A DNA stretch of 64,000 bases from Ignavibacteriales bacterium (GTDB lineage Bacteria > Bacteroidota > Ignavibacteria > Ignavibacteriales > SURF-24): the NCBI GenBank assembly GCA_036261625.1, contig DATAKL010000064.1:231-64230 (forward strand), read 5' to 3'. Of the stretch, positions 25,128 through 55,866 are shown piece after piece. Position numbers and translations under genes: made by a program. The notes below the pieces were generated by a model. The model was not told where the DNA came from. It saw only the letters and a program-made list of their open reading frames with translations, and searched no databases. Within the stretch, counting starts at the first letter, position 1, and every line of letters starts with the position of its first letter.

Positions 25128-25136
25128 TTTATCTTT

Positions 25137-26303: not shown

Positions 26304-26332
26304 TATGCCCCTCGGTTATTGAAAAAGTTTTC

Positions 26333-27304: not shown

Positions 27305-27349
27305 ATTTTCCTCTCAACTAAAGTTTTGAAAATTATTTGCCTGAAATAT

Positions 27350-41742: not shown

Positions 41743-41939
41743 TATTTCAATCACCCCCATGACGGATGATTGCCTTGTAAGCCCCTCGATTTTAGAACTC
41801 AGTATTCTGGAGCTATTTATGCCGGATAAGAGTTCGTATCTCAAGCTACTGAATTTACCGCCTTCGGGCAGCTCCGGATTAAACGCACTTTTTTACCCCT
41901 GTGAAACTAACCAACATGCCAATAGAGGAGATATGTGTT

Positions 41940-42200
41940 ATGGAAAGAAATGAAATCGAATCACGCGTTAAGAAAGTTATTGCCGAAGTGCTGAAAATCA
42001 ATCAGGATAATATTACTCCTGAAGCAAACTTTATCTTCGACTTAGGAGCCGACTCCATGCAGAGCCTCATGCTCGTTGCGGGCCTGGAGGAGGAATTCAG
42101 CGTCACAATGGATGAGGATAAGGCGCTCGAAGTCCAGTCCGTTGCAGGCGCAGTTGCCTTCATCTCTTCAGTTCTCCAGGAGCAGGAGCACGCAAAGTGA
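41940..42200 (+). CDS. Acyl carrier protein
   Basis: I place the start at ATG 41940, 9 nt after AGGAG, giving 86 aa. DLGADSM is a phosphopantetheine attachment motif. The stop overlaps the next gene's start (GTGA). Confidence 0.8.
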   Translation: MERNEIESRVKKVIAEVLKINQDNITPEANFIFDLGADSMQSLMLVAGLEEEFSVTMDEDKALEVQSVAGAVAFISSVLQEQEHAK

Positions 42201-44323
42201 AGGATAGGAAAACCAGGGAGGAAATTGAAAGAATATTTTACCCCGCCTCGGTTGCCGTCGTGGGTACTAATAAAACCAAAGGCACCGTTCCGTGCGATAT
42301 TCTGGAAAATATCCTTAAGGACGACTACCAGGGCATAATATACCCAGTAAATCCTAAGGAACGCTCTATATGCGGACTCAGAGTCTATAAGTACGTCGTC
42401 GACATTGAGGACCCGGTGGACCTTGCCGTTATTGTCTACCCGAGCTCTGTTATCCATATGGCTGTTGAACAGTGCGGTCAGAAGGGAATTAAATCGCTGG
42501 TCATTATCTCGGCAGGCTTCAAAGAGGTGGGCGGCTCAGGGATTGAAAGGGAAAACAGGGTTCGGGAAATTGCAGCTAAGTACGGCATTTCTTTTATAGG
42601 CCCCAACTGCCTCGGCATAATAAATACAGACCCCACGGTAAAACTGAATGCATCTTTTGCACGCAAAATGCCTGACGAGGGGAACATAGCTTTCATTTCA
42701 CAAAGCGGCGCCCTCTGTACTGCAGTACTCGACTATGCAATTGCCAAGCACATAGGATTTTCAAAGTTTGTAAGCTTCGGCAATAAGGCAGATATAAATG
42801 AAATTGACCTCCTTAACTATCTTAAAGATGATCCCCTTACAAAGGTTATTCTTCTTTACCTGGAAGAGATAAGCGACGTTCAGGCTTTAATGGAAACCTC
42901 GCGCACAATTATAAGTGAAACGGGTAAGCCTATTTTGGTCCTTAAAGCAGGAAGAACTCCCGAAGGGGCTTCGGCCGCGGCATCTCACACGGGCGCCCTG
43001 GCCGGAAGCGATGAGGTCTGTGACGCGGCCTTCCGCCAGGCTGGAATTATCCGCTGCGACGACATTGAGCAGATGTTCAACTACGCCATTGCATTTGCCT
43101 ATCAGCCGCTTCCCATGGGAAACCGCATCGCTATAATTACTAATGCCGGGGGACCCGGGGTATTAACAACTGACATGGCAATTAAAACGGGACTTAAGCT
43201 GGCGGAGTTTTCAGAGGAGACAACGCGCATACTGAAACAAAATCTTCCTCCGGCAGCCAACATCAAAAATCCCGTGGACGTAATCGGCGACGCCAGGGCC
43301 GAGCGCTACAATATCGCACTCAAAGCAGCCCTGAAGGATTCCAACGTGGATGGGGCGATGGTCATTCTTACACCGCAGTCAATGACGGATATAAAAGCAA
43401 TTGCCCATGAAATCTCCGGCATTGCAGGGGAATCCGGTAAACCTGTCCTTACCTCCTTTATGGGGGCCTCTGACGTTGCTGTGGGAATTGATGTACTGCA
43501 GAGAAGCAGCATACCGCACTACCAGCTTCCGGAAAATATGTGCCGCTCCTACGCCTGCACCTATCATTTTACGTGTCAGCTGGAAAAAAGGCACTCTCAG
43601 GCAGTCCATTTTACAGATGTGGATACTGAAGGTGCCCGCTGCCTTTTAAGTGAAGCCCTTGAAACAGGAAGGCATTATTTAACTGAAGAAGAGGCTCTCG
43701 AGGTGCTGGAAGCCTACAGAATGCCCGTTCTGCCGAGAGCTGTAGCTTCCTCGTGCACAGAGGCTCTTTACGTTGCAGGCGATATAGGATACCCCGTTGT
43801 AATGAAGATAGTCTCAGACTATATCGTTCATAAGTCCGATATGGGCGGCGTGGTGCTGAACATTCAAAACCGTGAGGAGGCTGAAGAGGCATATAAGAAA
43901 ATAATGCGCAGGGCTGAAGTCTCACTCCCAAAGGGTGTTATTCAGGGCATTCTGGTGGAGAAAATGGTAACCGACGGCGAAGAGGTTATTCTGGGACTTA
44001 AACGTGATCCACTATTCGGACCTGTTATAATGTTCGGCCTCGGCGGAATTTATGTGGAGGTCTTTAAGGACGTAAGTTTCAGAATAGCCCCGGTGTGGAA
44101 GGATTCTGTTTCGGAAATGATAAGTGAGATTAAATCCTATCCGGTTCTTAAAGGCATAAGGGGCAAATGCCCGCGGGACATTGAAAGCATAGAGCTATGC
44201 ATAGAACGCCTGAGCCAGCTTGCAATGGATTGTCCCGAAATTAAGGAGCTGGATATCAATCCATTAATAGTAGAGGAAAAAGGCAAAGGCTCTTTTATAG
44301 CCGATGCAAGAATAATTGTTTAA
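42197..44323 (+). CDS. ADP-forming acyl-CoA synthetase (acetate--CoA ligase family, fused alpha-beta)
   Basis: 708 aa with an N-terminal CoA-binding domain (PASVAVVG), a phosphohistidine loop (SHTGALAG) and a C-terminal ATP-grasp domain. Confidence 0.8.
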   Translation: MKDRKTREEIERIFYPASVAVVGTNKTKGTVPCDILENILKDDYQGIIYPVNPKERSICGLRVYKYVVDIEDPVDLAVIVYPSSVIHMAVEQCGQKGIKSLVIISAGFKEVGGSGIERENRVREIAAKYGISFIGPNCLGIINTDPTVKLNASFARKMPDEGNIAFISQSGALCTAVLDYAIAKHIGFSKFVSFGNKADINEIDLLNYLKDDPLTKVILLYLEEISDVQALMETSRTIISETGKPILVLKAGRTPEGASAAASHTGALAGSDEVCDAAFRQAGIIRCDDIEQMFNYAIAFAYQPLPMGNRIAIITNAGGPGVLTTDMAIKTGLKLAEFSEETTRILKQNLPPAANIKNPVDVIGDARAERYNIALKAALKDSNVDGAMVILTPQSMTDIKAIAHEISGIAGESGKPVLTSFMGASDVAVGIDVLQRSSIPHYQLPENMCRSYACTYHFTCQLEKRHSQAVHFTDVDTEGARCLLSEALETGRHYLTEEEALEVLEAYRMPVLPRAVASSCTEALYVAGDIGYPVVMKIVSDYIVHKSDMGGVVLNIQNREEAEEAYKKIMRRAEVSLPKGVIQGILVEKMVTDGEEVILGLKRDPLFGPVIMFGLGGIYVEVFKDVSFRIAPVWKDSVSEMISEIKSYPVLKGIRGKCPRDIESIELCIERLSQLAMDCPEIKELDINPLIVEEKGKGSFIADARIIV

Positions 44324-44344
44324 CAATTATATTCGGGGGTTACT

Positions 44345-46333
44345 ATGGACTTAAGAAATCTTACCGGATATGAAATTAACTTTCTTCACTGCCAGGGGTG
44401 CACGGCAGAAGACTGGTCAAGAGTTCAGGTGCCCAGGGATTTTGAAACCGAAAGGGTGCGTAACGTGCACTTTTCGGGAGACAACATCCTGGGGGGCATG
44501 AGAAAAACAGTCCTGCTCCCGGGAGACGTTGAAATGCCTTCAGGCATCTACAACTCTCACCTCCACAACTGTTCTTTCGGTGACGACGTCTTTATCCGCG
44601 GCGTGAGACTCATGGCAAATTACGACGTTGAAGGTGACGTTGTGATTGAAAATGTCCTAAGCCTCGTTACCGAGGGAATGGCTTCATTCGGCAACGGAAC
44701 GGAACTGGAGATATTAAATGAAGGCGGGGGACGCACAATAAAGATATTTGACCGTCTCTCGGCACAGCTGGCTTACTTCATGGCTCTATACAGGGAAAGA
44801 GCCGGTTTTATACAGGCGCTTGATAAAATAATCGACTATCACGTCAAATGCCGGACTTTTGAAACCGGAAGAATTAAAAAGGGAAGCCGCATAACAAACT
44901 GCGGAGAGATCAAAAACGTATTCATTGGAGAGTATGCCGAAATCAATGGCGCGCTGAAACTTAGTAACGGATCCATCCTCAGCACAAAGGAAGATCCCGC
45001 TGTAATCGGCGCAGGAGTAGAGGCAAAGGATTTTATCATACAGACAGGTTCCAGTGTGGAAAACAGCGCCATTCTCCACAGGTGTTTCGTAGGTCAGGGG
45101 GTCAGAATCGGCCGTCAATACTCGGCGGAGAACTCGGCTTTCTTTGCCAACTCAGAAGCATTTCACGGTGAAGGATGCTCCATCTTTGCAGGCCCTTACA
45201 CCGTAACACATCACAAGTCGACCCTTCTGATTGCGGGATTTTTCTCCTTCTTCAACGCCGGAAGCGGAAGCAATCAGAGCAACCATATGTACCGGCTGGG
45301 ACCCGTGCACCAGGGTATTCTGGAACGCGGCGCCAGAACGGGTTCCTTCAGCTATATGCTCTGGCCCTCAAGGGTGGGCGCTTTTACTTCTGTAATCGGG
45401 AAGCATTTTACTAACTTCGATACCTCGGAATTCCCGTTCTCATATATTTCCGAAGAAGATGGTAAAAGCATCCTTACGCCTGCAATAAACCTCTTTACAG
45501 CAGGAACCAAAAGGGACAGCCTTAAGTGGCCTGCACGCGACAGAAGAAAAGGGCAGGATAAACTGGACCTGATCAATTTCGATGTCTTAAGCCCGTATAC
45601 CGCAGGCAGAATGCTGACCGGAATGGGAATCCTTAATGACCTTTATCAGAAGACGTCAAAAGACACAAAGACAGTTTCATACAAGGGAATTGAGATCAAC
45701 CGCCTCATGCTGAGAACTTCAGCCAGGTATTATGAAATGGGAATTAAAATATTTATGGGGAGATGCCTCATAGACCAGATAGAAAAGCTTGGAGCTAAAA
45801 TTTTTGAAAATATAAAACCGGCTGATAACTCCGCCGGCAGCCTTGCAATGGAGATGTGGGTTGACGCGGCAGGGCTCCTCTCCCCGATATCCAGCATAAA
45901 TAACTTTGTGGACTCTGTTACGTCGGGTGAAATAAACCGCATCAGTCAGGCTGAAGATGCATTAAATAATATATGGCGGAACTACAGGGAAAATGAATGG
46001 CACTGGTGCCTGACTTTAATGAAGAAAAGAACAGGCGGACAACAGGAGGCGATAACGCCCGAATACCTGTCCGGCATAATTACAGACTGGAAGAATGAGT
46101 CGATAAAGCTGAACAATATGATCTTAAAAGACGCCATGAGGGAGTTTGATTTATCCTCAAAAATATCATACGGAGTTGACGGAAATAAAGATGAAGACTT
46201 CCAGGCAGTGCGCGGCAGTTATGAAGAAAATAAATTTATAAAGCAGATCAGGGAAGAGAACCTCGTAATAGAAGAAAGGGCCGATAAAGCGCTCTCCATT
46301 CTCGAAAGCCATAGTGAAAGCATTGAAGCATAA
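44345..46333 (+). CDS. DUF4954-like protein with a beta-helix (hexapeptide-like) core
   Basis: 662 aa. The repeated short V/I-G-x-x turns at about residues 180-300 suggest a beta-helix. The DUF4954 assignment is from memory of the family's size and pattern. Confidence 0.5.
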   Translation: MDLRNLTGYEINFLHCQGCTAEDWSRVQVPRDFETERVRNVHFSGDNILGGMRKTVLLPGDVEMPSGIYNSHLHNCSFGDDVFIRGVRLMANYDVEGDVVIENVLSLVTEGMASFGNGTELEILNEGGGRTIKIFDRLSAQLAYFMALYRERAGFIQALDKIIDYHVKCRTFETGRIKKGSRITNCGEIKNVFIGEYAEINGALKLSNGSILSTKEDPAVIGAGVEAKDFIIQTGSSVENSAILHRCFVGQGVRIGRQYSAENSAFFANSEAFHGEGCSIFAGPYTVTHHKSTLLIAGFFSFFNAGSGSNQSNHMYRLGPVHQGILERGARTGSFSYMLWPSRVGAFTSVIGKHFTNFDTSEFPFSYISEEDGKSILTPAINLFTAGTKRDSLKWPARDRRKGQDKLDLINFDVLSPYTAGRMLTGMGILNDLYQKTSKDTKTVSYKGIEINRLMLRTSARYYEMGIKIFMGRCLIDQIEKLGAKIFENIKPADNSAGSLAMEMWVDAAGLLSPISSINNFVDSVTSGEINRISQAEDALNNIWRNYRENEWHWCLTLMKKRTGGQQEAITPEYLSGIITDWKNESIKLNNMILKDAMREFDLSSKISYGVDGNKDEDFQAVRGSYEENKFIKQIREENLVIEERADKALSILESHSESIEA

Positions 46334-46405: not shown

Positions 46406-47287
46406 TTATTTGTATTGCTTTACTTTGAACTGTGCAAAGTTAATCCTGTGCAGCCACTCCTTGAAGGTTGTCAGTTCAACATCATAGTTTGCCTTCAGGG
46501 CATCAATATCCACGTCATAACCAACCCTGTTGAACCAGTCTACCATCTGGGCCGATTCCTTGCCCACAATGTTTTCAAACTCCTTAAGGCTCAACTTCAC
46601 ATAACTTACCGGCTCACCCAGTTCGCCGCTTAAGATAGAGGCGACTTCGGGATATGTCTTGGAGTCACCCGCTATTTCTATTTCCTTTCCCATATAGATG
46701 TCGGGATTTGAAAAAGCCTGTGCAACAAAGGAGCCTATATCATCAACAGCAATCATCTGAAGCGGAACGTTTTCATCCATTGCGCTTACCAGCTTGCCCG
46801 CGAATATTTCATTCCTCATTCCGATAAAGTTTTCCATGAAAAACACGGGGCGGAATATGGTATAGTGAAGTTTCTTTTCCCTGATATAATCTTCTATCAC
46901 TTTCTTGCTTTCAAAGTGCGACAGTCCGGTATTGCGTGTACAGCTTGCAACAGAGTTGTAAATAAAGTGCTGTACATTGCTGTCCTTAACGGCATCTACA
47001 AGAGCTTTGCCCTGATCAACCTCACCCTGGTAGCCGTGTTCCCAGAAATTCTGCACCGCAAAAACTCCGTAGGCATCCTTAATATGCTGCCTGAATGAAG
47101 ACGGGTTGTAAAGATCGCCAACAACTACTTCGATCCCTTTTTCCTTCAGCTTTCGTGCAGGTTCGCTATCCGGAGTGCGTGTAAGCGCCCTGATCTGAAA
47201 ACCCTCTTTCTGCAGGTGGTTGACAACTGCTCCGCCCTGTTTGCCCGTGGCACCGGTGACAAATATAACCTTATTCTTTCCAGCCAT
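46406..47287 (-). CDS. NmrA-family NAD(P)-binding protein
   Basis: 293 aa. N-terminal VTGATGKQGGAVVNHL Rossmann motif and NmrA-like length. Confidence 0.8.
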   Translation of the reverse strand: MAGKNKVIFVTGATGKQGGAVVNHLQKEGFQIRALTRTPDSEPARKLKEKGIEVVVGDLYNPSSFRQHIKDAYGVFAVQNFWEHGYQGEVDQGKALVDAVKDSNVQHFIYNSVASCTRNTGLSHFESKKVIEDYIREKKLHYTIFRPVFFMENFIGMRNEIFAGKLVSAMDENVPLQMIAVDDIGSFVAQAFSNPDIYMGKEIEIAGDSKTYPEVASILSGELGEPVSYVKLSLKEFENIVGKESAQMVDWFNRVGYDVDIDALKANYDVELTTFKEWLHRINFAQFKVKQYK

Positions 47288-47455
47288 ATTTCATATCCTC
47301 CTTTTCATAAAAAAATCTTGTCAAGCCTAACTATACTGTCCGATTTCAAGCTAAATTAATTACATTATAAAATCAATGTATTTGGAGGGGGCGATTTCCT
47401 ATTGTCCATAGTTTTAATATATTTCACCAGTAAAACTCAAACAAAAGGAGATGGT

Positions 47456-47791
47456 ATGGATCACAGTTTAACTACTACTGCATTTTCAATTGACGGCTAC
47501 AAGGTGGCAAAGAATCTCGGTATTGTAAGAGGAATAGTGGTAAGAAGCCGGTCTATATTCGGCACCATTGGCGCAAGTTTTCAGACGATAGTAGGAGGCA
47601 ACATAACGCTTTTTACAGAGCTTTGCGAGAAAACCCGCTTCGATTCATTTGAACTTATGGTAAAACACGCCGAAGAGCTGGGTGCCAACGGTGTAATAGG
47701 CATCCGCTACGATGCAAACGAGGTTATGTCGGGCGTAACAGAAGTCCTGGCCTACGGCACCGCTGTTGTGCTCGCAAAAGACGGGCAATAA
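47456..47791 (+). CDS. YbjQ/UPF0145 family protein
   Basis: Start ATG 47456, 5 nt after AAGGAG, gives 111 aa. Sequence features: GIVRGIVVRSRS...GGNITLFTELCEKTR...GANGVIGIRYD. Confidence 0.8.
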   Translation: MDHSLTTTAFSIDGYKVAKNLGIVRGIVVRSRSIFGTIGASFQTIVGGNITLFTELCEKTRFDSFELMVKHAEELGANGVIGIRYDANEVMSGVTEVLAYGTAVVLAKDGQ

Positions 47792-47817
47792 ACATTTTGC
47801 GAATTTTTTACATCGCC

Positions 47818-47956
47818 GTAGGGGCGAGCGGCGCTCGCCCGGGACGGGAAAAAATTATAACTCACAAATTGAAATTTCCGAATGTTTATGGGTAAACCAC
47901 ATTGCATGGGTGTATTCGTAATGTCAAACGGATGGGCGAGCGCCGCTCGCCCCTAC
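47818..47956. repeat. Element F: GTAG-hairpin doublet
   Basis: GTAG-gggcgagc-ggc-gctcgccc (47818-47840) is mirrored by gggcgagc-gcc-gctcgccc-CTAC (47934-47956). About 93 nt of AT-richer centre, between convergent genes. Confidence 0.8.
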
Positions 47957-47983
47957 GATGATGATGAGCTTTGAATTATTATT

Positions 47984-50900
47984 TTACGTCAGAAACCTTA
48001 CCAGTCCTCCCCAGCGGCTGTCTACACGGAACATGTGCTTGGAGAAAAATGAGGTCAGGTAAAAATGCGTTGTTAATACCTGTATTCCCTCGGCCCTCAG
48101 ACGGTTGCAGAAATCTTCCAACAGCACGCTTCCAATCCCCCTGCCGCGGAATGGCGCCGCAACTACAATGCCTTCCAGATGCGCTACATTTGAATCGAGT
48201 ATCTTGTAGCAGATTCCGCCGTTTACACTCTCGTTGCCCTCATTGTCGGTTAAAATAAGGAAGTGATCTTCCGATGTTATGTTTACCGGGTAGTCATCCA
48301 GTATGAACAGGCGGTTCAGATTGCCCACTTCAAAAGGCGACAAGGCCTGACGTACAACGTGCGCAAGGTTTCTGCGGTCGCTTATCAGCGTCTTTACAAT
48401 AACACTTTTTTTCTCATCCTCACCAACAGGAATAAGCTCCATCTGAAGACGCTTTGATACGTCCGGGAAAACTAGCTTGCTGAATACCTGGCGGTCCTCA
48501 TATGAAGTAAGTGCATCCTGAAGCTCTGAAAGTTCCACGAGCCTTGTTGCATGCACCTCCGGCTGCTCGAACATCACCTGAACAAGACGGCTGAATTTTT
48601 CCCTTACCAGTTCATCTGCATTTGCAAAATATGTCTTCTGATAGAACATGTACCTCGTTATTGCAGGAAAGCGGTTAAGCTGATAAAGCGTATATAATTT
48701 TCTTATAAACTGCTCGCGCGCCTCGCTGGTGGACTCGGGGTTCTGGCTGATCCATTCGTTGTATCTTTCAATTGCACCTAAAAGCGCCAGGTTCTTATAA
48801 GGCTCGTTCTTCCTTTTTTCAATATACCTGTCGATCGATCCCTTAAGGTCAAACTCCTCATAGCGCGCCGGAGAGTTCATGAGGTCGTTTTTCAGCGCCT
48901 CCAGGTACCTAAGAGCTCTTTTTTTGCTGAAGGCTTCAATTGCGGCATCAAACATCCATTCTATCTTAATCGCGTCCTTATTCCATGGATAGTTGCCTAT
49001 CGTCTGAAGATAGAAGTTCTTGATAAAAGGATAAATAATAGAAAGCGTATTGTCGTACGGCTTCCATCCCGAAAGGGAAAGTATGCGCGAGTTAAGCTTC
49101 AGGTCGGCCTCAGGCACCACAACGTTAGTCGGTGTAATTGAGCCCGGGGTGAGAGCGTATCCGCTGTTCTGCCATGCCTTTAGGAAAGCTATAAATGCTC
49201 TGACAAAAAGGGCTTTCCACCTGTACTCGTTTTTAAGCGAATGCTGCGTTGTCCTCACGCTCGAATAATCCCTGATCTTATCCCAAACCGTAAGGTCGTT
49301 CACATAGGCCAGGGAGGCTGCCCCCATAGGGGAGCGGAAGTTTCCGAACTTCGGCATTACGGATGAGGCTCCGGGATAGCCTGAGATCTTTATCATCCAG
49401 TAGATAGTCTCGCGCACGGCTGAACGCGTAATGTCATCTTTAATTAAAAGCATCAGGTCGTAATGCTTGTCATAAACAGTATTAATGCTGATGCGGTAGA
49501 GGAATGAATTGTGAGGCGACAGTATTCTTGAGATCCAGATACCTTCAGGGGGAACCTGCTTTAAGCTGAACTTGTCCTCTTCAAATATAAGAAGGAGGGA
49601 TTCCTTAAGGAATGTGGAGCAGAAGAGCACCTTCTCAATTCTTTTTATTTCCTCAGTGGTGAAATCCTCCTGGAAGACAACCCTTTCCTCCCAGTTTTCC
49701 TCCACGTCTTCAAATGCTGAAAGCTCGAAAGTTGATTCAAACCAGGCTGCAAGCTTGTTAAAAAGTTCCTGTGCGTATGAAGAAAGCTGCGGCTCCTTCT
49801 TGTGAAGAATCCAGCTGACGAGTTCTTCTCTTACGGCGCCGTAGGAGTTTCTGTTGTGGCGCGCAAAGTGCACAAGGAGTTCAAGAATCCTCTTAAACTG
49901 TGTAACTGTAACAACAGATGAATTCCAGTCGAGCGTTGTGCGGTACGACTCAAGTCTCTGCCTCAAGGCCTCCAGGCGCCCGCGTTCAAAGTCTGCCTGC
50001 GAGATCTGCTCTATGCTTTTCTTGTTTATAAAGGGAAGTCCCGATGTAATAAATGCAGGCAGATAGCGGCTGTAGTCGCGCCACGGCTCATCAAAAAGAA
50101 GTATCTTATAGGCATAGCTCCTGACCTCAAAGTCCGGATGCTGTGAAAGCGCCTCCAGGCGGCGTCTTATAAGATAAGCTACCCTGTGGCTTTCGGTGTG
50201 AAGGGATTTTTCAAGGCTCGTTACAGCATCCAGTGCCGCACTGCCGCGCCCGTAGATGCTGGTAACAATAACGTCGTTTAATTCCTTCAGCTTTGCTTCT
50301 GAAATTTTGTTGTTGATAGTGGGGAGCTTTCCGCGGTAGAGTCTTCCCAATGAGGAAGAAAGAAAAACCTGGGGTGAAATTTTTTCATAAGGCGTATCCC
50401 ATCCGTCCTTGCAGAGCGCGAAGTTGATAAGAGAGATATTGCCCGTCCAGAGCATCGGCTGCCTTATAAAGGTGCCGAGATCAACTACTTCACCTGTAAC
50501 CACATATTCAAAGTCGCCCACCTGAACGCGGCCTGTTTTGCTGTTAAGCTTAACGGTAAGCCTGGTGTTGTTAAGTTTGTTATAAAGCCCGTCGTGCTGA
50601 CTTTTGATGTCGTATTCCGTAATACCCAAGTCCCTTATAACCCAGCGCGGTATAATAATTTTAAGCGTGTCGATCTTAAAGTCGACGTTAGGGTATCTGT
50701 ACATTCTGCCGATCTCACCGGAGAAGCTGTTTTCAATTGCCTTTCTCCTCATGCTTCCCTTGGATGTAAGTTCGCCTCTCTGCTCTTCAAAGTCGCGGTC
50801 AAGTATTGAAAAGTCGACAATGCGTTCATATGGAGCAAGCTCCCTGTTGGCCGAGGCAATAATGGGGCGGAAGTAGTCTGTCTGTTTCTTTTTTGAAAGG

Positions 50901-52564
50901 GCCTTCTGAAGTATTGCGTCGTTCGTATCGGGGACAATTAAGAGTGTGTTGTATGCCATGCCGTCGCCGCAGAGGAAAGTTCTCTTAAAGCCCGGTATGT
51001 TATCGAACATTTTTTCAATGGGGCGGGGGGCAATTGTCTGTCCCTTAATGTTCTTATAGATATCCTTTATGCGGTCTACAATATGGTAGTGCCCGTTCTT
51101 ATCCGTTTTAAACAGGTCGCCTGTAGGCATCCAGCCGTCATTTTTTTCCTTAACGTCGTCATCAAGGTAAGTTGCAACGTAGTGTCCCGAGATTTCCAGT
51201 TCGCCCTTGGAGTTAAGTCTCATCTGAATGCCCGGAAGCGGTATGCCCACGGAATTCTTAACGTACTCTCCCGGAGGCGTCATGCATATTCCGCCTGTAG
51301 CTTCCGTCATACCGAAGCCCGAGCAGAGCTCTACATCATGCTCGTGGAAGAACTGGAAGACCTTGGGATCCAGGTATCCCGCTGCCGAAAGCCCCCAGCG
51401 GAGGTATTTCCCTGTGAGCTCCCGGAAAAGGCTTCTGTCCACGGTTTTAGATGCCTGATGGAGGAACTTGTCTCTTATCTGCACCAGTCTAAGAGGAATG
51501 CTTATGATGCCGGTCGGGTTAACCTTCTGCATCATGCTGAGCAGCGTTTCAATTGAAGGGTTGCCGGCAAAGACGTAAGTGCCTCCCCAGAATATCATTC
51601 CCATCATTTCCAGGTACCGCCCGAAAGTGTGGTAAAGGGGGAGATAGCAAAGCAGGAGTTCTTTTTCACCCACCTCAGGCAGGGCTGCAGCTCGCGCAAA
51701 GCGCTTTGTAATAAGGTTGTACATTGTAAAGACTACGCCCTTTGCCTGACCGGTGCTGCCGGAGGTAAAAAGGACGGTTGCAGGATCATCAAGCGAGAGT
51801 TTTTTCCGTCCGGAAAGGACCATGTCAATTCTTGCCGGATCGAACTCCGAGATCAGCTTTTCCATTATGTAGACCTCAGGCAGGGGGTCTATTCTGTCGT
51901 AGCCTATATATACGATCTTAAATGGGCGGTCCAGCTTTTCGCGCACTCTTAAGAGCAGATTAAGCCTCGTCTCGGAATCTGTAACGGCAATGTTTATATT
52001 GGTTCTGCTGAATATATCGGCAACAGTTTCTGAACTGAAATGTATGTTTAAGGGGGTGTCAAAAATATCATAAAGCAGGCATGCCAGGTCGCAGCTTGCG
52101 CTTTCAATAGTGTTTTCAGAGAATATTGCAACCCTGGGGCTTTCCTCAGCAGCTTCATAGAGAACAGAAGCGATCTGGCGCGCTCTTTTAGATACCCACC
52201 TGTAGCTGAATTCAGTAAGCTTGTTGTCCTCGGTAACAGTAAAAAGGATCCTTTCCGGGTGGGACTGAATTCTCTGGTCAAAAAGCGTCTTCAGGCTGTA
52301 GTTTGACAGCCTTATGGCCTCAAATGCCGTATCGGCCCATCTGTAGCGGGCCTTCATTTCATCCAGGCTTCTTAAGAATACAGAGTGGCGCGTCAGGTCG
52401 AGGTACTCATGCCAGAATGCCTCATCAACCTTGGTTTTATCCTCTGAGGAAATGATTTCCTCTGCCAGACTGAGGACCCTGCAGGCAGAGTTTTTATCCG
52501 GTTCCTGCCTTTGTTTCCAGTTCTCCAGTTCAAGACGCAGGTCTTTAATTGTTTCTCTATTCAT
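47984..52564 (-). CDS. Giant fusion protein: AMP-forming acyl-CoA/acyl-AMP ligase + about 750-aa unknown region + C-terminal GNAT acetyltransferase
   Basis: Start ATG 52564 gives 1526 aa. AMP-binding motifs present: LFTSGSTGQAKGV, GFGMTEA, TGDLFKTDKNGHYHIVDRIKD, and a GELTSKGSMRRK A10-like lysine. C-terminal GNAT motif A: VAAPFRGRGIGSVLLE. Confidence 0.75.
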   Translation of the reverse strand: MNRETIKDLRLELENWKQRQEPDKNSACRVLSLAEEIISSEDKTKVDEAFWHEYLDLTRHSVFLRSLDEMKARYRWADTAFEAIRLSNYSLKTLFDQRIQSHPERILFTVTEDNKLTEFSYRWVSKRARQIASVLYEAAEESPRVAIFSENTIESASCDLACLLYDIFDTPLNIHFSSETVADIFSRTNINIAVTDSETRLNLLLRVREKLDRPFKIVYIGYDRIDPLPEVYIMEKLISEFDPARIDMVLSGRKKLSLDDPATVLFTSGSTGQAKGVVFTMYNLITKRFARAAALPEVGEKELLLCYLPLYHTFGRYLEMMGMIFWGGTYVFAGNPSIETLLSMMQKVNPTGIISIPLRLVQIRDKFLHQASKTVDRSLFRELTGKYLRWGLSAAGYLDPKVFQFFHEHDVELCSGFGMTEATGGICMTPPGEYVKNSVGIPLPGIQMRLNSKGELEISGHYVATYLDDDVKEKNDGWMPTGDLFKTDKNGHYHIVDRIKDIYKNIKGQTIAPRPIEKMFDNIPGFKRTFLCGDGMAYNTLLIVPDTNDAILQKALSKKKQTDYFRPIIASANRELAPYERIVDFSILDRDFEEQRGELTSKGSMRRKAIENSFSGEIGRMYRYPNVDFKIDTLKIIIPRWVIRDLGITEYDIKSQHDGLYNKLNNTRLTVKLNSKTGRVQVGDFEYVVTGEVVDLGTFIRQPMLWTGNISLINFALCKDGWDTPYEKISPQVFLSSSLGRLYRGKLPTINNKISEAKLKELNDVIVTSIYGRGSAALDAVTSLEKSLHTESHRVAYLIRRRLEALSQHPDFEVRSYAYKILLFDEPWRDYSRYLPAFITSGLPFINKKSIEQISQADFERGRLEALRQRLESYRTTLDWNSSVVTVTQFKRILELLVHFARHNRNSYGAVREELVSWILHKKEPQLSSYAQELFNKLAAWFESTFELSAFEDVEENWEERVVFQEDFTTEEIKRIEKVLFCSTFLKESLLLIFEEDKFSLKQVPPEGIWISRILSPHNSFLYRISINTVYDKHYDLMLLIKDDITRSAVRETIYWMIKISGYPGASSVMPKFGNFRSPMGAASLAYVNDLTVWDKIRDYSSVRTTQHSLKNEYRWKALFVRAFIAFLKAWQNSGYALTPGSITPTNVVVPEADLKLNSRILSLSGWKPYDNTLSIIYPFIKNFYLQTIGNYPWNKDAIKIEWMFDAAIEAFSKKRALRYLEALKNDLMNSPARYEEFDLKGSIDRYIEKRKNEPYKNLALLGAIERYNEWISQNPESTSEAREQFIRKLYTLYQLNRFPAITRYMFYQKTYFANADELVREKFSRLVQVMFEQPEVHATRLVELSELQDALTSYEDRQVFSKLVFPDVSKRLQMELIPVGEDEKKSVIVKTLISDRRNLAHVVRQALSPFEVGNLNRLFILDDYPVNITSEDHFLILTDNEGNESVNGGICYKILDSNVAHLEGIVVAAPFRGRGIGSVLLEDFCNRLRAEGIQVLTTHFYLTSFFSKHMFRVDSRWGGLVRFLT

Positions 52565-52737
52565 AAATTTCCATTTTATTTTACGCCGTCTCCTCTTATC
52601 TTTGCATTTACGAAAATATGCAATAATCAAAAATAAATAATTCAGACGTTAAATTAAGGGAAAAACTTTCTTCCCCATCCCTCTTTAAGAGCTGTTTTCC
52701 CTTTATTTTATTTTTCCTTTAACTATTTTCCTTTTCT

Positions 52738-53877
52738 ATGGACAAGACCAAAAAACGTTTTGCCTTTATTGATCTTTATAGGGGCTGGGCTCTTTTATTC
52801 ATGTTTGAAACCCACATCTTTAATGCCATGCTGATGCCTGAGTTAAGGATGACGGGGTGGTTTAAGCATCTGACATTTATTAACGGGCTTGTTGCGCCCT
52901 CATTCCTGTTTATTTCGGGCTTTGCCTTTACAATTGCAAGCCAGAGAAAGCTGGAGGCCTTCAGGCAGTACAAGTTCGACTTCTGGCGTCAGATGGGAAG
53001 AATTGTCCTGATATGGCTGGTGGGCTATTCGCTCAGGCTTCCGTACTTGTCGCTGCAGAAGATGCTTCACAAGGCAACGCCGCAGGAGCTTGCACCATTC
53101 TTAAGCGTTGACGTTCTTCAGTGCATAGCATTCGGACTGCTGTTGATGTTTGTGCTGAGACTGTTCATAAAAAGCGATACCGTTTTTAATGTTGTCCTTA
53201 TAGTAATAACGCTTGTTTCCTTTATTTTTGCCCCTCTGGTCTACAAGATAGATTTTACGCAGTATATGCCTGTTGCCCTGGCAAATTATTTCAACGAGCA
53301 GCACGGGTCATTATTTCCGCTTTTCCCCTGGCTGGGCTTCATGCTTTCGGGTTCAGTAATAGGCTATTATTATATGCTTTTCAAGAACCGGAATGATGAG
53401 GCGCGTTTCCTGAAGCTTTCTTTAAGGTGGAGCATAGCTGCCATTCTTGTGGGAGCCTTTGTATTGTGGTTTCCGCTTGATGCCTTGGATTACATCAGTA
53501 AAGTTACACCGAACCAGTTTTTCTTTATACTGAGACTTGGATTGGTTATGCTTCTGCTTGTATCGTTAAGGTACTATGAATTATGGAGAGGTACAGAAAA
53601 GTCGTTTGTAATGGATGTAGGGCGCGAGTCGCTTTTAGTATACTGGCTGCACCTGCAGGTAATCTACAGGAAGCTCTGGCAGGATACGACGCTTTATTCG
53701 ATAGTAGGGGAGCGCTTTAATTTCCTTGAATGCATACTGGCCTCAATTGCGCTTGCCGCCGTAATGGTGCTGGCCGCAATAGTATGGGGAAGAATAAAAA
53801 AACGTTACAAATTATTCTCGCAGATTGCCGCCGCAGGGACCGTTACAGTTGTGGTAATTGTGTTTTTATTAAAATAA
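52738..53877 (+). CDS. DUF1624 / HGSNAT-like membrane acyltransferase
   Basis: 379 aa, polytopic. The N-terminal FIDLYRGWALLFMFETH segment is typical of the heparan-alpha-glucosaminide N-acetyltransferase catalytic family. Confidence 0.55.
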   Translation: MDKTKKRFAFIDLYRGWALLFMFETHIFNAMLMPELRMTGWFKHLTFINGLVAPSFLFISGFAFTIASQRKLEAFRQYKFDFWRQMGRIVLIWLVGYSLRLPYLSLQKMLHKATPQELAPFLSVDVLQCIAFGLLLMFVLRLFIKSDTVFNVVLIVITLVSFIFAPLVYKIDFTQYMPVALANYFNEQHGSLFPLFPWLGFMLSGSVIGYYYMLFKNRNDEARFLKLSLRWSIAAILVGAFVLWFPLDALDYISKVTPNQFFFILRLGLVMLLLVSLRYYELWRGTEKSFVMDVGRESLLVYWLHLQVIYRKLWQDTTLYSIVGERFNFLECILASIALAAVMVLAAIVWGRIKKRYKLFSQIAAAGTVTVVVIVFLLK

Positions 53878-53901
53878 AACATGCCTGTATACCCGCAGCA
53901 C

Positions 53902-55350
53902 CTATTTTGCTGCGGCAAGGTTATAATTTATTTCCAGACGGTCGCGCCCTTCGGGCGAATTGTTGATTTCAAATAACACATCTTTTATCAGACACAGGCC
54001 TTCATTGCCCTCTTTGCAGTAGTAAACCACCATCTCGGAATAAAGCTTGTCTGTTCCGTTAAGGCCTGCTAAATCTATTTTCATCTTTGGAGAAGTTATG
54101 TTCTTCTCGAGATTTATTTTCCCGTCTTTTGAAAATATTCTTATCTTGCTCGGTGCTTCATGGTTTAACCCGTAATTATTCTGGAATGAAAGATTAAGAT
54201 TGATTGCCTTTAGCTTTGATAAATTAACTCCGCTTAAGACTTCCTTATCCCCGTGAAAGTCCTTTTCATTAAATGCAAAAGCCTTCCTTAATTTTTCTAT
54301 TCCCTTAAGCTGAAGCGTTGATACCTCGCCCGATGACATGTCAATTACCCTTATCAAATTATTGTCTGTATCGGCAACGTAGAGTTTTCCCTTTGCATAG
54401 GAAATGCCGCCGGGTTCATTAAACATGGCTTTTGTTAAACTGCCGTCATCCATTCCTTCAGTCCCGGTACCGGCGTATGTGCGGCTGGTATGTTCAAGGG
54501 GGTCTACAACTTTTATTTTGTTGTTATATGTATCAGCCAGGTAAAGCTTCCCGTTGTGGTATACTATGCCGAGCGGGTGCTGAAGCCTGGCGCGCCTGGA
54601 GTCCCCGTCAATGTCACCGAACTCAAAGAGCCCTTTACCAATTATGGTTGATACTTTTCCGTTAACGGGATTAAAGTCTGCGCTTCTTACTGCGCTGACC
54701 TCGCTGTCGGCAAAGTAAAGTTTTTTGCCGTCGGTTGTAACTCCGCTGGGCTGTGAAAGGAGAGCCGACTTGAGTGCCCCGTCAAGAATATTTTCCTGTC
54801 CGGTGCCTGCATGGATGCGGATTGTGTTGTCGGACAGGTTAAGAGCCCACAACTGATGCTGCCCGGCCATTGCGATGTAAAGTACGTTATCATTAATCGT
54901 AAGGTCCCACGGCGAGTTGAGCCCCGTGCGGCGTGCTTCCCCGTGGGGATTTCTTTCATATACCTGACGACCCAGGCCGGCAATTGTTGTAACGGTTCCT
55001 GTTTTCATCTCAGCCTTGCGGATAAGGTGGTTTTCCGTATCTGCTATATAAAGCACGTCGCCCATGAGGGCAAGTCCCTGCGGATGGAAGAAGGATGCCT
55101 CTTCAAACTTTCCGTCTTTCTGTCCTTCCTTTCCGGAGCCGATAATAGAGAGGATATTCCCCTCAAGATCTGAAACAATAACTCTGTTGTGGTTTGAGTC
55201 GGTAATAAAAAGCCTTCCTGAGGCCTCATCGGCTAATACCTTGCCGGGGAAGCTTAGGAGCGACTCTGGCTTTTTATCTTTCTCAAGACTGAGTTTAATG
55301 GGAGTTTTGTTTATGGAAGAGCTGTTAAGCTTTATAATATTACTGATCAC
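53902..55350 (-). CDS. NHL-repeat beta-propeller protein (C-terminal part of a split Trx-NHL gene)
   Basis: 482 aa with six or so NHL blades (LFITDSNHNRVIV, LYIADTENHLIRK, LYFADSEVSAVR, LYLADTYNNKIKV, LYVADTDNNLIRV). In frame with 55363..55866, separated by one TAA. Confidence 0.75.
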   Translation of the reverse strand: MISNIIKLNSSSINKTPIKLSLEKDKKPESLLSFPGKVLADEASGRLFITDSNHNRVIVSDLEGNILSIIGSGKEGQKDGKFEEASFFHPQGLALMGDVLYIADTENHLIRKAEMKTGTVTTIAGLGRQVYERNPHGEARRTGLNSPWDLTINDNVLYIAMAGQHQLWALNLSDNTIRIHAGTGQENILDGALKSALLSQPSGVTTDGKKLYFADSEVSAVRSADFNPVNGKVSTIIGKGLFEFGDIDGDSRRARLQHPLGIVYHNGKLYLADTYNNKIKVVDPLEHTSRTYAGTGTEGMDDGSLTKAMFNEPGGISYAKGKLYVADTDNNLIRVIDMSSGEVSTLQLKGIEKLRKAFAFNEKDFHGDKEVLSGVNLSKLKAINLNLSFQNNYGLNHEAPSKIRIFSKDGKINLEKNITSPKMKIDLAGLNGTDKLYSEMVVYYCKEGNEGLCLIKDVLFEINNSPEGRDRLEINYNLAAAK

Positions 55351-55362
55351 GCTGTCGAGACT

Positions 55363-55866
55363 TTAATAGACTCCCTCGCCCGAGTGATGCCCCACAACAT
55401 CGCCCCTGGGGTCGATAAGTACAACCGTAGGCCACGCGTTTGCGCCGTAGCTGGTCCAGATCTTAAAATCCTTGTCGTTTACAACCGGGTGTTCAATGTC
55501 GTAGCGGAGAATTGCCTGACGTATATTGCCTGTTTCCTGTTCGGAAAGGAATTTAGCCGAGTGGACGCCAATAACGGCAAGTTCACCGGGGTATTTGGCT
55601 TCAAGCTTTTTAAGGTCGGGTATAATGTGCATGCAGTTAATGCAGCAGAATGTCCAGAAGTCCAGGAGCACAACTTTTCCCCTCAGATCTGAGAGTTTAA
55701 TGGGGTGATCCACGTTAAGCCAGTCCAGTCCATCCGGAAATTCAGGGGCATCGCCGTTGGTATACCTGTTAGCCATAGCGTAATTTCCTTTAATATCTTT
55801 GTCTGCGCAGCCGGTAAAGCTGAATATAAGCAGAACAATGAATGCCGTTAAAGACCTCATTTTCAT
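55363..55866 (-). CDS. Thioredoxin-like (TlpA/redoxin) lipoprotein (N-terminal part of a split Trx-NHL gene)
   Basis: 167 aa with an FTGC lipobox and a [11 protein letters not shown] CxxC redox motif. It ends at a TAA that is in frame with the downstream NHL ORF. Confidence 0.75.

What the first reader, a model, noticed from the sequence alone, without database searches (positions are those of the whole stretch)
47984..52564. 1526-aa AMP-forming ligase fused through a 750-aa unknown region to a GNAT acetyltransferase
The N-terminal 650 aa or so carry the adenylate-forming enzyme motifs LFTSGSTGQAKGV, GFGMTEA and GDLFKTDKNGHYHIVDRIKD, plus the A10-type lysine in GELTSKGSMRRK. The last 140 aa or so carry GNAT motif A (FRGRGIGSVLLE).

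The region between them has no motif I can place. One stretch (ALTPGSITPTNVVVPE ... LSLSGW) faintly recalls a kinase-like catalytic-loop/DFG arrangement without the catalytic Asp, and that reading is weak.

In the known Pat/AcuA paradigm, a GNAT acetylates the A10 lysine of AMP-forming acyl-CoA synthetases, and in Pat the GNAT is fused to an NDP-forming-synthetase-like domain. The partition here is reversed:
- The AMP-forming enzyme carries the GNAT.
- A stand-alone NDP-forming synthetase with an ACP sits 3.7 kb away.
- An HGSNAT-like membrane acyltransferase is divergently transcribed next door.

Possible readings are a self-regulating ligase or an acyl-adenylate to N-acyl transfer machine.
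Basis: partly seen in the sequence, partly recalled or inferred. Interest (0 to 1): 0.65.

Follow-up and report, generated by a model that had tools for sequence, protein, structure and literature searches.

The report
Acyl-CoA ligase–dead kinase–acetyltransferase giant enzyme
A real, widely conserved 1,526-residue bacterial protein joins a working-looking fatty-acid-type CoA ligase to a GNAT acyltransferase through a rigid body containing a catalytically dead kinase fold. In several lineages it sits beside citric-acid-cycle genes, which suggests an undescribed regulator or enzyme of acetyl/acyl-CoA metabolism.

Summary
Window 47984-52564 (-) is one uninterrupted 1,526-aa ORF with AMP-binding (E 1.7e-50), AMP-binding_C_3 (9e-12) and GNAT (3.4e-9) domains. 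No Pfam family covers residues 625-1430.

The fusion is not an artefact. More than 100 full-length homologues exist in Ignavibacteria, Bacteroidota, Marinimicrobia, Gemmatimonadota and Gammaproteobacteria, and the middle region was not found outside this architecture.

AlphaFold2 models (pLDDT 89-91) resolve the middle region into four parts: a beta-rich domain, a HEAT/ARM-like helical domain, a protein-kinase-like fold and a helical bundle. The kinase-like fold best matches PRPK/Bud32 (TM 0.58-0.60), and all top 50 matches are kinases. It lacks the VAIK Lys, HRD Asp and DFG Asp, so it is a pseudokinase.

No neighbour is universal. The HGSNAT-like and NDP-forming-synthetase neighbours are only clade-level synteny. 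The most recurrent neighbour is citrate synthase, and one Bacteroidota lineage places the gene between citrate synthase/aconitase and isocitrate dehydrogenase.

Best reading (inferred, about 0.4): an acyl-CoA-forming ligase wired to a GNAT protein acyltransferase on a pseudokinase scaffold, acting on acetyl/acyl-CoA homeostasis. Databases give only generic names, and I found no paper on it.

The parts
47984..52564 (-). Complete CDS, 1,526 aa plus a TAA/stop codon at 47984-47986.
   Evidence: Full-length collinear homologues. Independent contigs are identical.
52283..52564 (-). N-terminal helical extension (residues 1-94) with the conserved W-H-x-Y-L-D...R-W-A motif. Function unknown.
   Evidence: Conservation profile. 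It is the least conserved part.
51206..52282 (-). ANL (AMP-binding) N-terminal domain, residues 95-453. It carries A3 FTSGSTGQAKG (265-277) and A5 GFGMTEA (416-422).
   Evidence: Pfam PF00501, E 1.7e-50. Best NCBIfam matches are long-chain fatty-acid-CoA ligases, far below their cut-offs. T267, K275 and E421 are invariant in 32 sequences.
50693..51205 (-). ANL C-terminal subdomain, residues 454-624. It carries the FACS-signature-like stretch DGWMPTGD...IVDRIKD (476-501), the A8 hinge, and the A10-like loop GELTSKGSMRRK (597-608) with K602.
   Evidence: Pfam PF23562, E 9e-12. K602 is present in 30 of 32 sequences and R607 is invariant. Alignment to carboxylic acid reductase.
50360..50692 (-). 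Beta-rich domain, residues 625-735, with invariant motifs P-R-W..R-D-L-G, G-D-x-E-Y, D-L-G...R-Q-P-x-L-W..N and C-K-x-G-W-D. Fold not classified.
   Evidence: Model mc1bddc84e598, strands 2-111, pLDDT about 90. Invariant columns.
49583..50296 (-). HEAT/ARM-like alpha-helical repeat domain, residues 757-994.
   Evidence: All-helical in the model. HEAT_2 Pfam hits in 3 of 32 members. Weak profile hits to designed HEAT/ARM repeat proteins. Together with the next domain it aligns to the Vps34/PI3K helical+kinase region.
48875..49558 (-). Protein-kinase-like fold, residues about 1003-1230, predicted to be catalytically dead. The N-lobe strands are GIWISRI, LYRISINT and HYDLMLLIK. The degenerate catalytic loop is LTPGSITPTNVVVPEAD (1138-1154). 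The 'DFG' position reads SLS (1163-1165).
   Evidence: Domain model ma07f15794c66, pLDDT 91, pTM 0.90. In Foldseek all top 50 hits are kinases; PRPK/Bud32 gives E 6.5e-5 and TM 0.58-0.60. Motif alignments.
48446..48874 (-). C-terminal helical bundle packed on the kinase-like domain, residues 1231-1373. It holds the positions most invariant across both subfamilies: A1264, Y1268, W1271, Y1294, R1304 and T1311.
47987..48445 (-). GNAT acyltransferase domain, residues 1374-1526. Motif A is FRGRGIG (1472-1478). The candidate general base is E1464 in beta-4 (HLEGIVV). The C-terminus is the conserved W-G-G-L-V-R-F-L.
   Evidence: Pfam PF00583, E 3.4e-9. Foldseek hits to GNATs: 5jph TM 0.65, Ard1, PatZ 9it0, GCN5. 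E/D at position 1464 in 30 of 32 sequences.
52738..53877 (+). Divergently transcribed HGSNAT-like (DUF1624-type) membrane acyltransferase. It is a possible clade-specific partner, not a family-wide one.
   Evidence: Pfam PF07786, E 8.4e-15. It is the divergent neighbour in all 7 Ignavibacteria-like loci, down to 66-68% identity, and is absent from the other loci.

Best explanation
The gene encodes a single-chain, three-module enzyme. (1) A fatty-acyl-CoA-synthetase-type ANL domain activates a carboxylic acid with ATP to an acyl-AMP and then to an acyl-CoA. (2) A rigid, non-catalytic body follows, made of a beta domain, HEAT/ARM repeats, a dead protein-kinase-like fold and a helical bundle. It serves as a docking or sensing platform. 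(3) A C-terminal GNAT domain transfers an acyl group from acyl-CoA to an amine. The acceptor is most likely a protein lysine: either the ligase's own adenylation-loop lysine (K602, giving feedback control as in Pat/Acs) or enzymes at the entry of the citric-acid cycle. The protein would thus couple acid/acyl-CoA supply to acylation-based control of acetyl-CoA use.

Shown: the domain identities, the conservation of their catalytic motifs, the kinase-like fold and its loss of catalytic residues, the obligate architecture, and the recurrent TCA-gene neighbourhood.

Inferred: that both end domains are active, that the GNAT uses the ligase's product, the nature of the acid, and the acceptor.
For: - Intact and conserved ANL motifs. 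A3, A5, A7, A8, K602 and R607 are invariant or nearly so in 32 sequences that reach down to about 27% overall identity. The ANL region is the most conserved part of the protein.
- GNAT features. The Pfam hit is above its cut-off. Motif A and an E/D at the beta-4 general-base position are kept in 30 of 32 sequences. The fold matches protein acetyltransferases, including PatZ, MsPat, Ard1 and GCN5.
- Obligate architecture. 32 of 32 members have AMP-binding and 31 of 32 have GNAT. The middle region gives 292 cluster hits, essentially all at about residues 660-1400 of proteins 1,500-1,700 aa long. The shorter hits inspected are N-truncated fragments.
- Residues 625-1526 model as one compact body (pLDDT 89, pTM 0.84).
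- Pseudokinase. The fold is clearly kinase-like, but no VAIK Lys, HRD Asp or DFG Asp is conserved.
- Context. Citrate synthase lies within 5 genes in 5 of 47 dereplicated lineages, where roughly 0.15 would be expected by my estimate. It occurs again beside the P0100 gene. One lineage of 16 or more loci has citrate synthase and aconitase upstream (divergent) and isocitrate dehydrogenase 28-170 bp downstream on the same strand. Aconitase, fumarase, glutamate dehydrogenase, PntAB and inorganic pyrophosphatase appear elsewhere.
Against: - There is no biochemical evidence of any kind.
- The ANL domain resembles long-chain/aryl ligases, not acetyl-CoA synthetase, so a direct link to acetyl-CoA is not obvious.
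- K602 is not in the canonical A10 register, and the Pat recognition motif PX4GK is absent.
- A 1:1 fusion of a modifying enzyme with its own target is unusual.
- The window's own genome region has no TCA genes. Most lineages show no TCA neighbour, so the association is statistical and the lineages are not fully independent.
- The geometry between the ANL C-terminal subdomain and the GNAT site could not be examined.
Confidence: 0.4

Rival explanations
1. Small-molecule N-acyl product synthase. The ligase makes an acyl-CoA and the GNAT transfers the acyl group to a small amine (an amino acid, polyamine or lipid head group) held in the pocket of the dead kinase. This would be a fused version of two-step routes such as acyl-CoA ligase plus glycine N-acyltransferase, or FadD33/MbtL/MbtK. 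In Ignavibacteria the neighbouring HGSNAT-like membrane acyltransferase would handle the product at the membrane.
For: - Both catalytic domains are conserved.
- A FACS-type signature is present in the ANL domain.
- The alpha-helix of the GNAT acceptor side (P-x-E-x-G...R-L-F, residues 1410-1420) is conserved across both subfamilies, which suggests one common acceptor.
- Kinase-like folds such as APH and PsiK bind small amines, and PsiK is among the fold hits.
- The HGSNAT-like neighbour is retained in 7 loci while other synteny decays.
Against: - No biosynthetic-cluster context was seen anywhere. The gene is stand-alone and sits amid housekeeping and central-metabolism genes.
- The HGSNAT-like gene is absent outside one clade.
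- The best GNAT structural neighbours are mostly protein acetyltransferases, although GNAT fold hits discriminate poorly.
Confidence: 0.2
2. Purely cis-regulated ligase. The protein's job is simply acyl-CoA synthesis. The GNAT uses ambient acetyl-CoA to acetylate the ligase's own catalytic-loop lysine and switch it off, and the pseudokinase/HEAT body senses a metabolite that gates this step. No other target exists.
For: - The Pat/AcuA-Acs paradigm, and the acetylation of FadD-type ligases by KATs with a regulatory domain (classification in PMC6456759).
- A lysine is conserved in the A10-like loop.
- The ANL domain is the most conserved module.
- The TCA/acetyl-CoA neighbourhood.
Against: - K602 is displaced from the canonical A10 position and there is no PX4GK motif.
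- About 900 aa of conserved protein for one self-modification is costly.
- The window subfamily lacks every nucleotide-binding hallmark in the kinase fold, so what would be sensed is unclear.
Confidence: 0.2
3. One end domain is non-catalytic. As in Pat, where the NDP-forming-synthetase-like domain only binds ligand and drives oligomerisation, the ANL domain here could be a sensor of acids, ATP or acyl-AMP that regulates a GNAT protein acetyltransferase. The converse is also possible, with the GNAT acting only as an acyl-CoA-binding sensor.
For: - The precedent of PatZ/SePat (the PatZ GNAT is among the fold hits).
- The non-canonical A10 register.
Against: All catalytic ANL motifs, including the A3 P-loop lysine, the A5 Thr-Glu, the A7 Asp and the A8 hinge, are invariant over very deep divergence. 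That is not expected for a mere binding domain. GNAT motif A and the general-base position are also kept.
Confidence: 0.1
4. Assembly or annotation artefact: two or three separate genes were fused by misassembly or a frameshift.
For: None found. One relative (L011) has a frame break near its 3' end, which looks like a local error in that MAG.
Against: - More than 100 collinear full-length ORFs from unrelated samples and phyla.
- Identical independent contigs.
- The middle domain was not found on its own; the shorter hits inspected are N-truncated fragments.
Confidence: 0.01

Closest known systems
Pat / PatZ / YfiQ (class I-alpha, type I bacterial lysine acetyltransferases)
   Same: Both are large multidomain proteins with a C-terminal GNAT preceded by an acyl-CoA-synthetase-related module. 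Both are stand-alone genes and both are tied to acetyl-CoA/Acs control. The PatZ GNAT is a structural hit. The classification is taken from PMC6456759.
   Different: - The N-terminal module of Pat is an NDP-forming (succinyl-CoA-synthetase-like) domain and is non-catalytic. Here it is an AMP-forming ANL domain with all catalytic motifs.
- Pat has no HEAT/pseudokinase body.
- No sequence similarity outside the GNAT was detected.
Long-chain fatty-acyl-CoA synthetases of the ACSL/FadD11/CAR adenylation type (PF00501 + PF23562)
   Same: - The same two Pfam domains.
- A FACS-signature-like DGW..TGD...DR.KD stretch.
- Best NCBIfam and PDB matches.
   Different: - Scores are far below every curated equivalog cut-off (139.9 against 476 bits).
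- The A10 lysine register is shifted.
- There is a 94-aa N-terminal extension and a 900-aa C-terminal extension.
PRPK/Bud32 and other minimal protein-kinase-like folds; pseudokinases
   Same: The bilobal kinase fold (TM 0.58-0.60 to PRPK/Bud32; all top 50 Foldseek hits are kinases). In the distant subfamily the motif pattern still reads kinase-like: LG..HGK.VYRV, EEFIPGETV and ADPSPENIIVP.
   Different: - The VAIK Lys, HRD Asp and DFG Asp are not conserved.
- No Pfam kinase model matches any member, and no PDB kinase matches by sequence.
- The domain is embedded between HEAT repeats and a helical bundle.
PI3K class III (Vps34) helical + kinase unit
   Same: A helical solenoid followed by a kinase-like domain. 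These are the top Foldseek hits for the 902-aa model over about 630 columns (E 1.6e-5).
   Different: TM scores are only 0.2-0.28 with rmsd about 17 A. There is no DRHxxN/DFG motif. This is an architectural analogy at most.
AAC(6')-Ie/APH(2'')-Ia bifunctional aminoglycoside-modifying enzyme
   Same: One chain combining a GNAT and a kinase-like fold (from general knowledge, not tested here).
   Different: There both domains are catalytically active and act on a small molecule, the domain order is reversed, and there is no ANL domain.
AceK (isocitrate dehydrogenase kinase/phosphatase)
   Same: A kinase-fold regulator genetically tied to isocitrate dehydrogenase and to acetate/fatty-acid growth. 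In one lineage this gene sits directly upstream of icd.
   Different: No detectable homology (hhalign probability 0.13%). AceK is an active kinase, whereas this fold is degenerate.

Membership tests
ANL superfamily (AMP-binding, PF00501) | Profile match above the gathering score. | tested here: met
   172.4 bits against 29.9, E 1.7e-50. 32 of 32 family members match.
ANL superfamily (AMP-binding, PF00501) | Core motifs: A3 (T/S)SG(T/S)TGxPKG, A5 GxTE, A7 TGD, and the A8 hinge DRxKD...G..I.P. | tested here: met
   Residues 265-277, 416-422, 481-483 and 497-513. T267, K275, E421, D483, K500, G508 and P513 are invariant in 32 sequences.
ANL superfamily (AMP-binding, PF00501) | Catalytic A10 lysine at the canonical position (T-x-x-G-K / T-x-T-x-K). 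| tested here: inconclusive
   The family motif is T-x-K-G-[ST]-x-[RK]-R-K. K602 is conserved in 30 of 32 sequences but lies 2-4 residues N-terminal of the position aligned to the A10 Lys of carboxylic acid reductase.
Curated long-chain fatty-acid-CoA ligase families (NCBIfam PRK06187, FadD11 and others) | Score above the curated cut-off. | tested here: not met
   Best score 139.9 bits against a cut-off of 476; FadD11 110 against 950. The domain is FACS-like but not a member of any curated equivalog.
GNAT superfamily | Profile match above the gathering score, plus motif A (R/Q-x-x-G-x-G/A). | tested here: met
   PF00583, 37.4 bits against 20.7. RGRGIG at residues 1473-1478. 31 of 32 members match.
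GNAT superfamily | GNAT fold. | tested here: met
   Foldseek hits 5jph (TM 0.65-0.66), Ard1, GCN5 and PatZ.
GNAT superfamily | Acyl-CoA-dependent N-acyl transfer activity. | not testable with these tools
   Only the conserved E/D at the beta-4 general-base position (E1464, 30 of 32) speaks for it.
Pat-type class I-alpha lysine acetyltransferase | NDP-forming acyl-CoA-synthetase-like domain (CoA_binding / Succ_CoA_lig / ATP-grasp_5) fused to the GNAT. | tested here: not met
   These Pfam families are absent from this protein. They do occur in the separate gene at 42197-44323.
Pat-type class I-alpha lysine acetyltransferase | Acetylates the A10 lysine within a PX4GK motif of AMP-forming ligases. 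| not testable with these tools
   No PX4GK motif surrounds K602. The activity itself is untested.
Protein-kinase-like (PKL) superfamily | Bilobal kinase fold. | tested here: met
   Domain model with pLDDT 91. 117 PDB hits at E<=1e-3, the top 50 all kinases, with TM up to 0.60.
Protein-kinase-like (PKL) superfamily | Catalytic residues: beta-3 Lys, HRD/catalytic Asp, DFG Asp. | tested here: not met
   Not conserved in either subfamily. The window has S1142 at the Asp position, SLS in place of DFG, and no conserved beta-3 Lys. It therefore counts as a pseudokinase.
Protein-kinase-like (PKL) superfamily | Sequence-profile membership (Pfam kinase families, or PDB kinases by HMM). | tested here: not met
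   No kinase family matched in 32 members at E<=1. A profile of 18 sequences finds no kinase in the PDB.
PI3K/PIKK-type kinases | Helical domain plus a kinase domain with DRHxxN and DFG motifs. | tested here: inconclusive
   Vps34 is the top hit for the 902-aa model (E 1.6e-5), but TM is 0.19-0.28. The motifs are absent.
AceK | Detectable homology to E. coli AceK. | tested here: not met
   hhalign probability 0.13%.

The most novel reading that the evidence does not exclude
The protein is a previously unrecognised, self-sufficient metabolic switch. It senses free fatty acid or acetate by converting it to acyl-CoA in its own ANL domain. It then uses that acyl-CoA, through its GNAT, to acylate citrate synthase, aconitase or isocitrate dehydrogenase docked on the dead-kinase/HEAT platform. 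This would set the flux at the entry of the citric-acid cycle. It would be a functional analogue of AceK or Pat, built from different parts and used by FCB-group and other uncultivated bacteria.
Probability: 0.18. Interest if true: 0.85.

Novelty: new variant of a known kind. Interest (0 to 1): 0.65.

Why it matters
Control of metabolism by lysine acylation in bacteria is understood mainly through Pat/AcuA acting on Acs.

This family would add a new design in which the acyl-CoA maker, a pseudokinase scaffold and the acyltransferase are one polypeptide. It has 292 clusters at 50% identity and occurs in Ignavibacteria, Bacteroidota, Marinimicrobia, Gemmatimonadota and Gammaproteobacteria. These are abundant but mostly uncultivated soil, sediment and marine groups.

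It would also be one of rather few bacterial pseudokinase domains with a clear enzymatic context. The middle 800 residues are a domain set without a Pfam model. The gene's insertion between gltA/acn and icd in one lineage gives a concrete, testable hypothesis.

Even if the function proves ordinary, such as a regulated fatty-acyl-CoA synthetase, thousands of genes now labelled only 'GNAT family N-acetyltransferase' or 'AMP-binding protein' could be annotated better.

Tried and rejected
Alignments with hits were accepted.
- The full-length protein (1,526 aa) exceeds the 1,200-aa limit and model coordinates cannot be read. The distance from K602 to the GNAT site, and the fold of the beta-rich domain on its own, could therefore not be assessed.
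- Sequence-profile searches of the kinase-like region (A5) and of residues 625-1000 (A6) against the PDB found no kinase. They found only weak hits to designed repeat proteins.
- Pfam on 32 members found no kinase family.
- AceK homology was tested and rejected.
- I looked for a universal operon partner among 104 loci in 47 lineages and found none.
- The idea that the NDP-forming synthetase/ACP is a functional partner was rejected as close-relative synteny only.
- There are no TCA genes in the window itself.
- Terminator and promoter scans of the 3' intergenic region found nothing.
- Two literature searches found no description of this architecture.
- The artefact-fusion hypothesis was rejected.
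Full report
**Observation.**
The minus-strand ORF 47984..52630 is open for 1,548 codons. From the ATG at 52564 it encodes 1,526 aa, and relatives begin at the aligned Met. Pfam gives AMP-binding at 95-453 (E 1.7e-50), AMP-binding_C_3 at 506-623 (E 9e-12) and GNAT Acetyltransf_1 at 1431-1504 (E 3.4e-9, above its cut-off). Nothing credible lies between residues 625 and 1430. The best NCBIfam matches are long-chain fatty-acid-CoA ligases, FadD11, MenE and carboxylic acid reductase. All fall far below their curated cut-offs. PDB sequence matches are luciferases, carboxylic acid reductase, and malonyl-, oxalyl- and fatty-acyl-CoA ligases. Two public runs contain an independently assembled 14.5-kb contig identical to 47000-54000.

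**The fusion is real and old.**
A scan of species-representative genomes found 15 loci. Full-length collinear ORFs of about 1,530 aa occur in Ignavibacteria-like MAGs (68-90% identity), Gemmatimonadota, and Lysobacterales and other Gammaproteobacteria (43-45%). An exhaustive HMMER search with the unknown middle region alone (residues 651-1387) found 292 clusters at E<=1e-3. Nearly all are in proteins of 1,500-1,700 aa, with the match at about 660-1400. The roughly 900-aa hits inspected are N-terminally truncated fragments that start inside the ANL C-terminal subdomain. Of 32 diverse members, 32 have AMP-binding plus AMP-binding_C_3 and 31 have a GNAT. A metagenome scan added 80 more full-length loci. 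Source databases name these proteins only 'GNAT family N-acetyltransferase', 'AMP-binding protein' or 'long-chain acyl-CoA synthetase', and all come from MAGs or metagenomes. The family splits into two subfamilies. The one containing the window protein is 30-50% identical in the middle region. A distant one, including Marinimicrobia, is 20-25% identical there.

**What the middle region is.**
An AlphaFold2 model of residues 625-1526, built with 45 homologues, is confident (pLDDT 89, pTM 0.84). It shows the following parts:
- a beta-rich domain (residues 625-735) that carries the most invariant middle-region motifs: PRW..RDLG, GD.EY, DLG...RQP.LW..N and CK.GWD;
- an all-helical domain (757-994);
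- a beta/alpha unit (about 1003-1230);
- a helical bundle (1231-1373);
- a GNAT (1374-1526).

Foldseek against the PDB returned the Vps34/PI3K helical+kinase unit first. The E-value is 1.6e-5 over about 630 columns, but TM is only 0.2-0.28. Next came protein kinases, PRPK/Bud32 and many GNATs, including PatZ, MsPat, Ard1 and GCN5. A separate model of residues 990-1380 (pLDDT 91, pTM 0.90) gave 117 hits at E<=1e-3. The top 50 are all protein-kinase-like folds. PRPK/Bud32 scores best, with TM 0.56-0.60 normalised to the target, and PsiK and JAK2-JH2 are also present.

The kinase relationship cannot be seen by sequence. No Pfam kinase family matches any of 32 members, and a profile of 18 sequences finds no PDB kinase. 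The profile of residues 625-1000 hits only designed HEAT/ARM repeat proteins weakly, and 3 members hit HEAT_2.

**The kinase fold is degenerate.**
The distant subfamily still reads kinase-like: LG..HGK.VYRV resembles a G-loop plus beta-2, EEFIPGETV resembles a hinge, and ADPSPENIIVP resembles HRDLKPENILV. However, the Asp position is variable in both subfamilies and is S1142 in the window. The beta-3 Lys is not conserved. The DFG Asp is replaced by S-[LI]-S. Residues that are conserved include W1010, Y1023-R1024 in beta-2, N1147, D1154 and a set in the C-terminal helices (A1264, Y1268, W1271, Y1294, R1304, T1311). I therefore call it a pseudokinase, most likely a scaffold or ligand/protein-binding module. 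That role is inferred.

**The end domains look catalytically competent.**
In 32 sequences the ANL A3 P-loop (T267, K275), A5 (E421, T423), A7 (D483) and A8 hinge (K500, Y503, K504, G508, P513, E517) are invariant. The ANL is the most conserved module, at 38-51% identity, against 18-40% for the middle domains and 29-36% for the GNAT. The stretch DGWMPTGD...IVDRIKD matches the fatty-acyl-CoA-synthetase signature as I know it from the literature. That comparison rests on my own knowledge.

The A10 loop reads E-L-T-x-K-G-[ST]-x-[RK]-R-K. K602 is present in 30 of 32 sequences and R607 in all. The lysine lies 2-4 residues N-terminal of the canonical A10 position as aligned to carboxylic acid reductase. 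No PX4GK Pat-recognition motif is present.

In the GNAT, motif A (R-x-[RK]-G-[LIV]-[GSA]) is kept, as is an E/D at the beta-4 position used as general base in GCN5-type enzymes (E1464) in 30 of 32 sequences.

**Genomic context.**
- The HGSNAT_cat membrane protein lies at 52738-53877, divergent, with a 173-bp gap.
- The NDP-forming acyl-CoA synthetase lies at 42197-44323 and is preceded by an ACP at 41901-42200.
- DUF4954, NmrA-like and YbjQ genes lie in between.

The synthetase/ACP pair is shared only with close relatives. The HGSNAT-like gene is shared only within the Ignavibacteria-like clade, in 7 loci down to 66-68% identity. Gemmatimonadota and Lysobacterales loci have unrelated neighbours.

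I clustered naive ORF calls from 104 loci, grouped into 47 lineages at 60% identity of the main protein. No universal partner emerged. The most widespread neighbour is citrate synthase, in 5 lineages and 11 loci.

One lineage of at least 16 loci (60-81% identity, with PorP/SprF nearby) has a fixed arrangement. Citrate synthase and aconitase are divergent upstream. Isocitrate dehydrogenase lies 28-170 bp downstream on the same strand. Other loci show related neighbours:
- citrate synthase at -1 with fumarase downstream (L021);
- aconitase at -1 (P0017);
- glutamate dehydrogenase upstream with citrate synthase downstream, in two Marinimicrobia members of the distant subfamily;
- citrate synthase 16 bp downstream, convergent (P0100);
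- glutamate dehydrogenase with a CitMHS transporter;
- PntAB;
- inorganic pyrophosphatase 30 bp upstream on the same strand.

About 442 flanking genes were sampled over the 47 lineages. With one citrate synthase per few thousand genes, about 0.15 lineages would be expected by chance, against 5 observed. This is my rough estimate. The lineages are not fully independent, but at least three distinct arrangements exist. The window itself has no TCA genes.

**Interpretation.**
The evidence fits a compact three-module machine linked to acetyl/acyl-CoA metabolism. My preferred mechanism has three parts. The ANL domain makes an acyl-CoA. The GNAT uses acyl-CoA, either that product or ambient acetyl-CoA, to acylate lysines. 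The HEAT/pseudokinase body positions the acceptor or senses a metabolite. Candidate acceptors are the ligase's own K602, which would be Pat/Acs logic in one chain, and the TCA-entry enzymes encoded next door. All chemistry is inferred.

The rivals are a small-molecule N-acyl synthase, a purely cis-regulated ligase, and a design in which one end domain is only a sensor, as in Pat. Artefact is excluded. AceK is a kinase-fold regulator of isocitrate dehydrogenase, but it shows no homology.

**Comparison with known systems, and novelty.**
In the classification of prokaryotic lysine acetyltransferases (PMC6456759), class I-alpha enzymes carry an NDP-forming synthetase-like domain. Class I-beta enzymes carry cAMP-, ACT- or NADP-binding regulatory domains. 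An AMP-forming ligase plus pseudokinase in front of the GNAT is not among them. Two literature searches found no description of it. I rate it a new variant of a known kind, namely a large multidomain GNAT acyltransferase. Its function is still unknown and its middle region has no Pfam model.

**Limits.**
The full-length protein could not be modelled and coordinates could not be inspected. Neighbour genes were called with a simple longest-ORF rule, and only the most recurrent clusters were annotated with Pfam.

Noticed in passing
window 41901-46333 (+): There is an apparent operon here. A stand-alone ACP (PP-binding, E 3.3e-14) has a stop that overlaps the start of an ADP/NDP-forming acyl-CoA synthetase (708 aa, CoA_binding_2/Succ_CoA_lig/ATP-grasp_5). 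A DUF4954/DUF6819 left-handed-beta-helix protein follows. An ACP paired with an NDP-forming synthetase is unusual and may deserve its own look. The arrangement is conserved in L001, L002 and L006.
   Followed up: partly
window 53902-55866 (-): A thioredoxin-like (TlpA/AhpC-TSA) + NHL-repeat protein is a single ORF of about 650 aa in relatives L001, L005 and L006. Here it is interrupted by an in-frame TAA at 55363-55365, where the relatives have Glu (GEGVY*SLDS against GEGVFESLDG). This is a nonsense mutation or pseudogene, or a sequencing error.
   Followed up: partly
window 47811-47840 and 47934-47963: A GC-rich 30-nt element (CATCGCCGTAGGGGCGAGCGGCGCTCGCCC), itself containing a palindrome, occurs as an inverted pair in the 192-bp spacer between ybjQ and the 3' end of the big gene. 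Copies also lie on other contigs of the same sample. It looks like a REP-like intergenic repeat.
   Followed up: partly
window 21245-28138 (-): A cluster of PaaZ-like Aldedh+MaoC fusion, thiolase and 3-hydroxyacyl-CoA dehydrogenase genes, with probable enoyl-CoA hydratases beside them. It resembles a phenylacetate or beta-oxidation-type acyl-CoA degradation pathway. It lies about 20 kb from the finding, and no link was shown.
   Followed up: no
window 12250-20277 (+): Three large ORFs (558, 1,074 and 852 aa) have no Pfam match at E<=1e-5.
   Followed up: no
L022 and the FLOH01 members of the P0091 cluster (assembly GCA_900089805.1): One Marinimicrobia-type assembly appears to carry two paralogues of the distant subfamily, P0111 and a P0091-like protein. 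This hints at diversification of specificity.
   Followed up: no
L011 13974-14534: In one Gammaproteobacteria MAG, the homologue is split by a frame break near the GNAT-proximal end. This is probably a local assembly error or a pseudogene.
   Followed up: no
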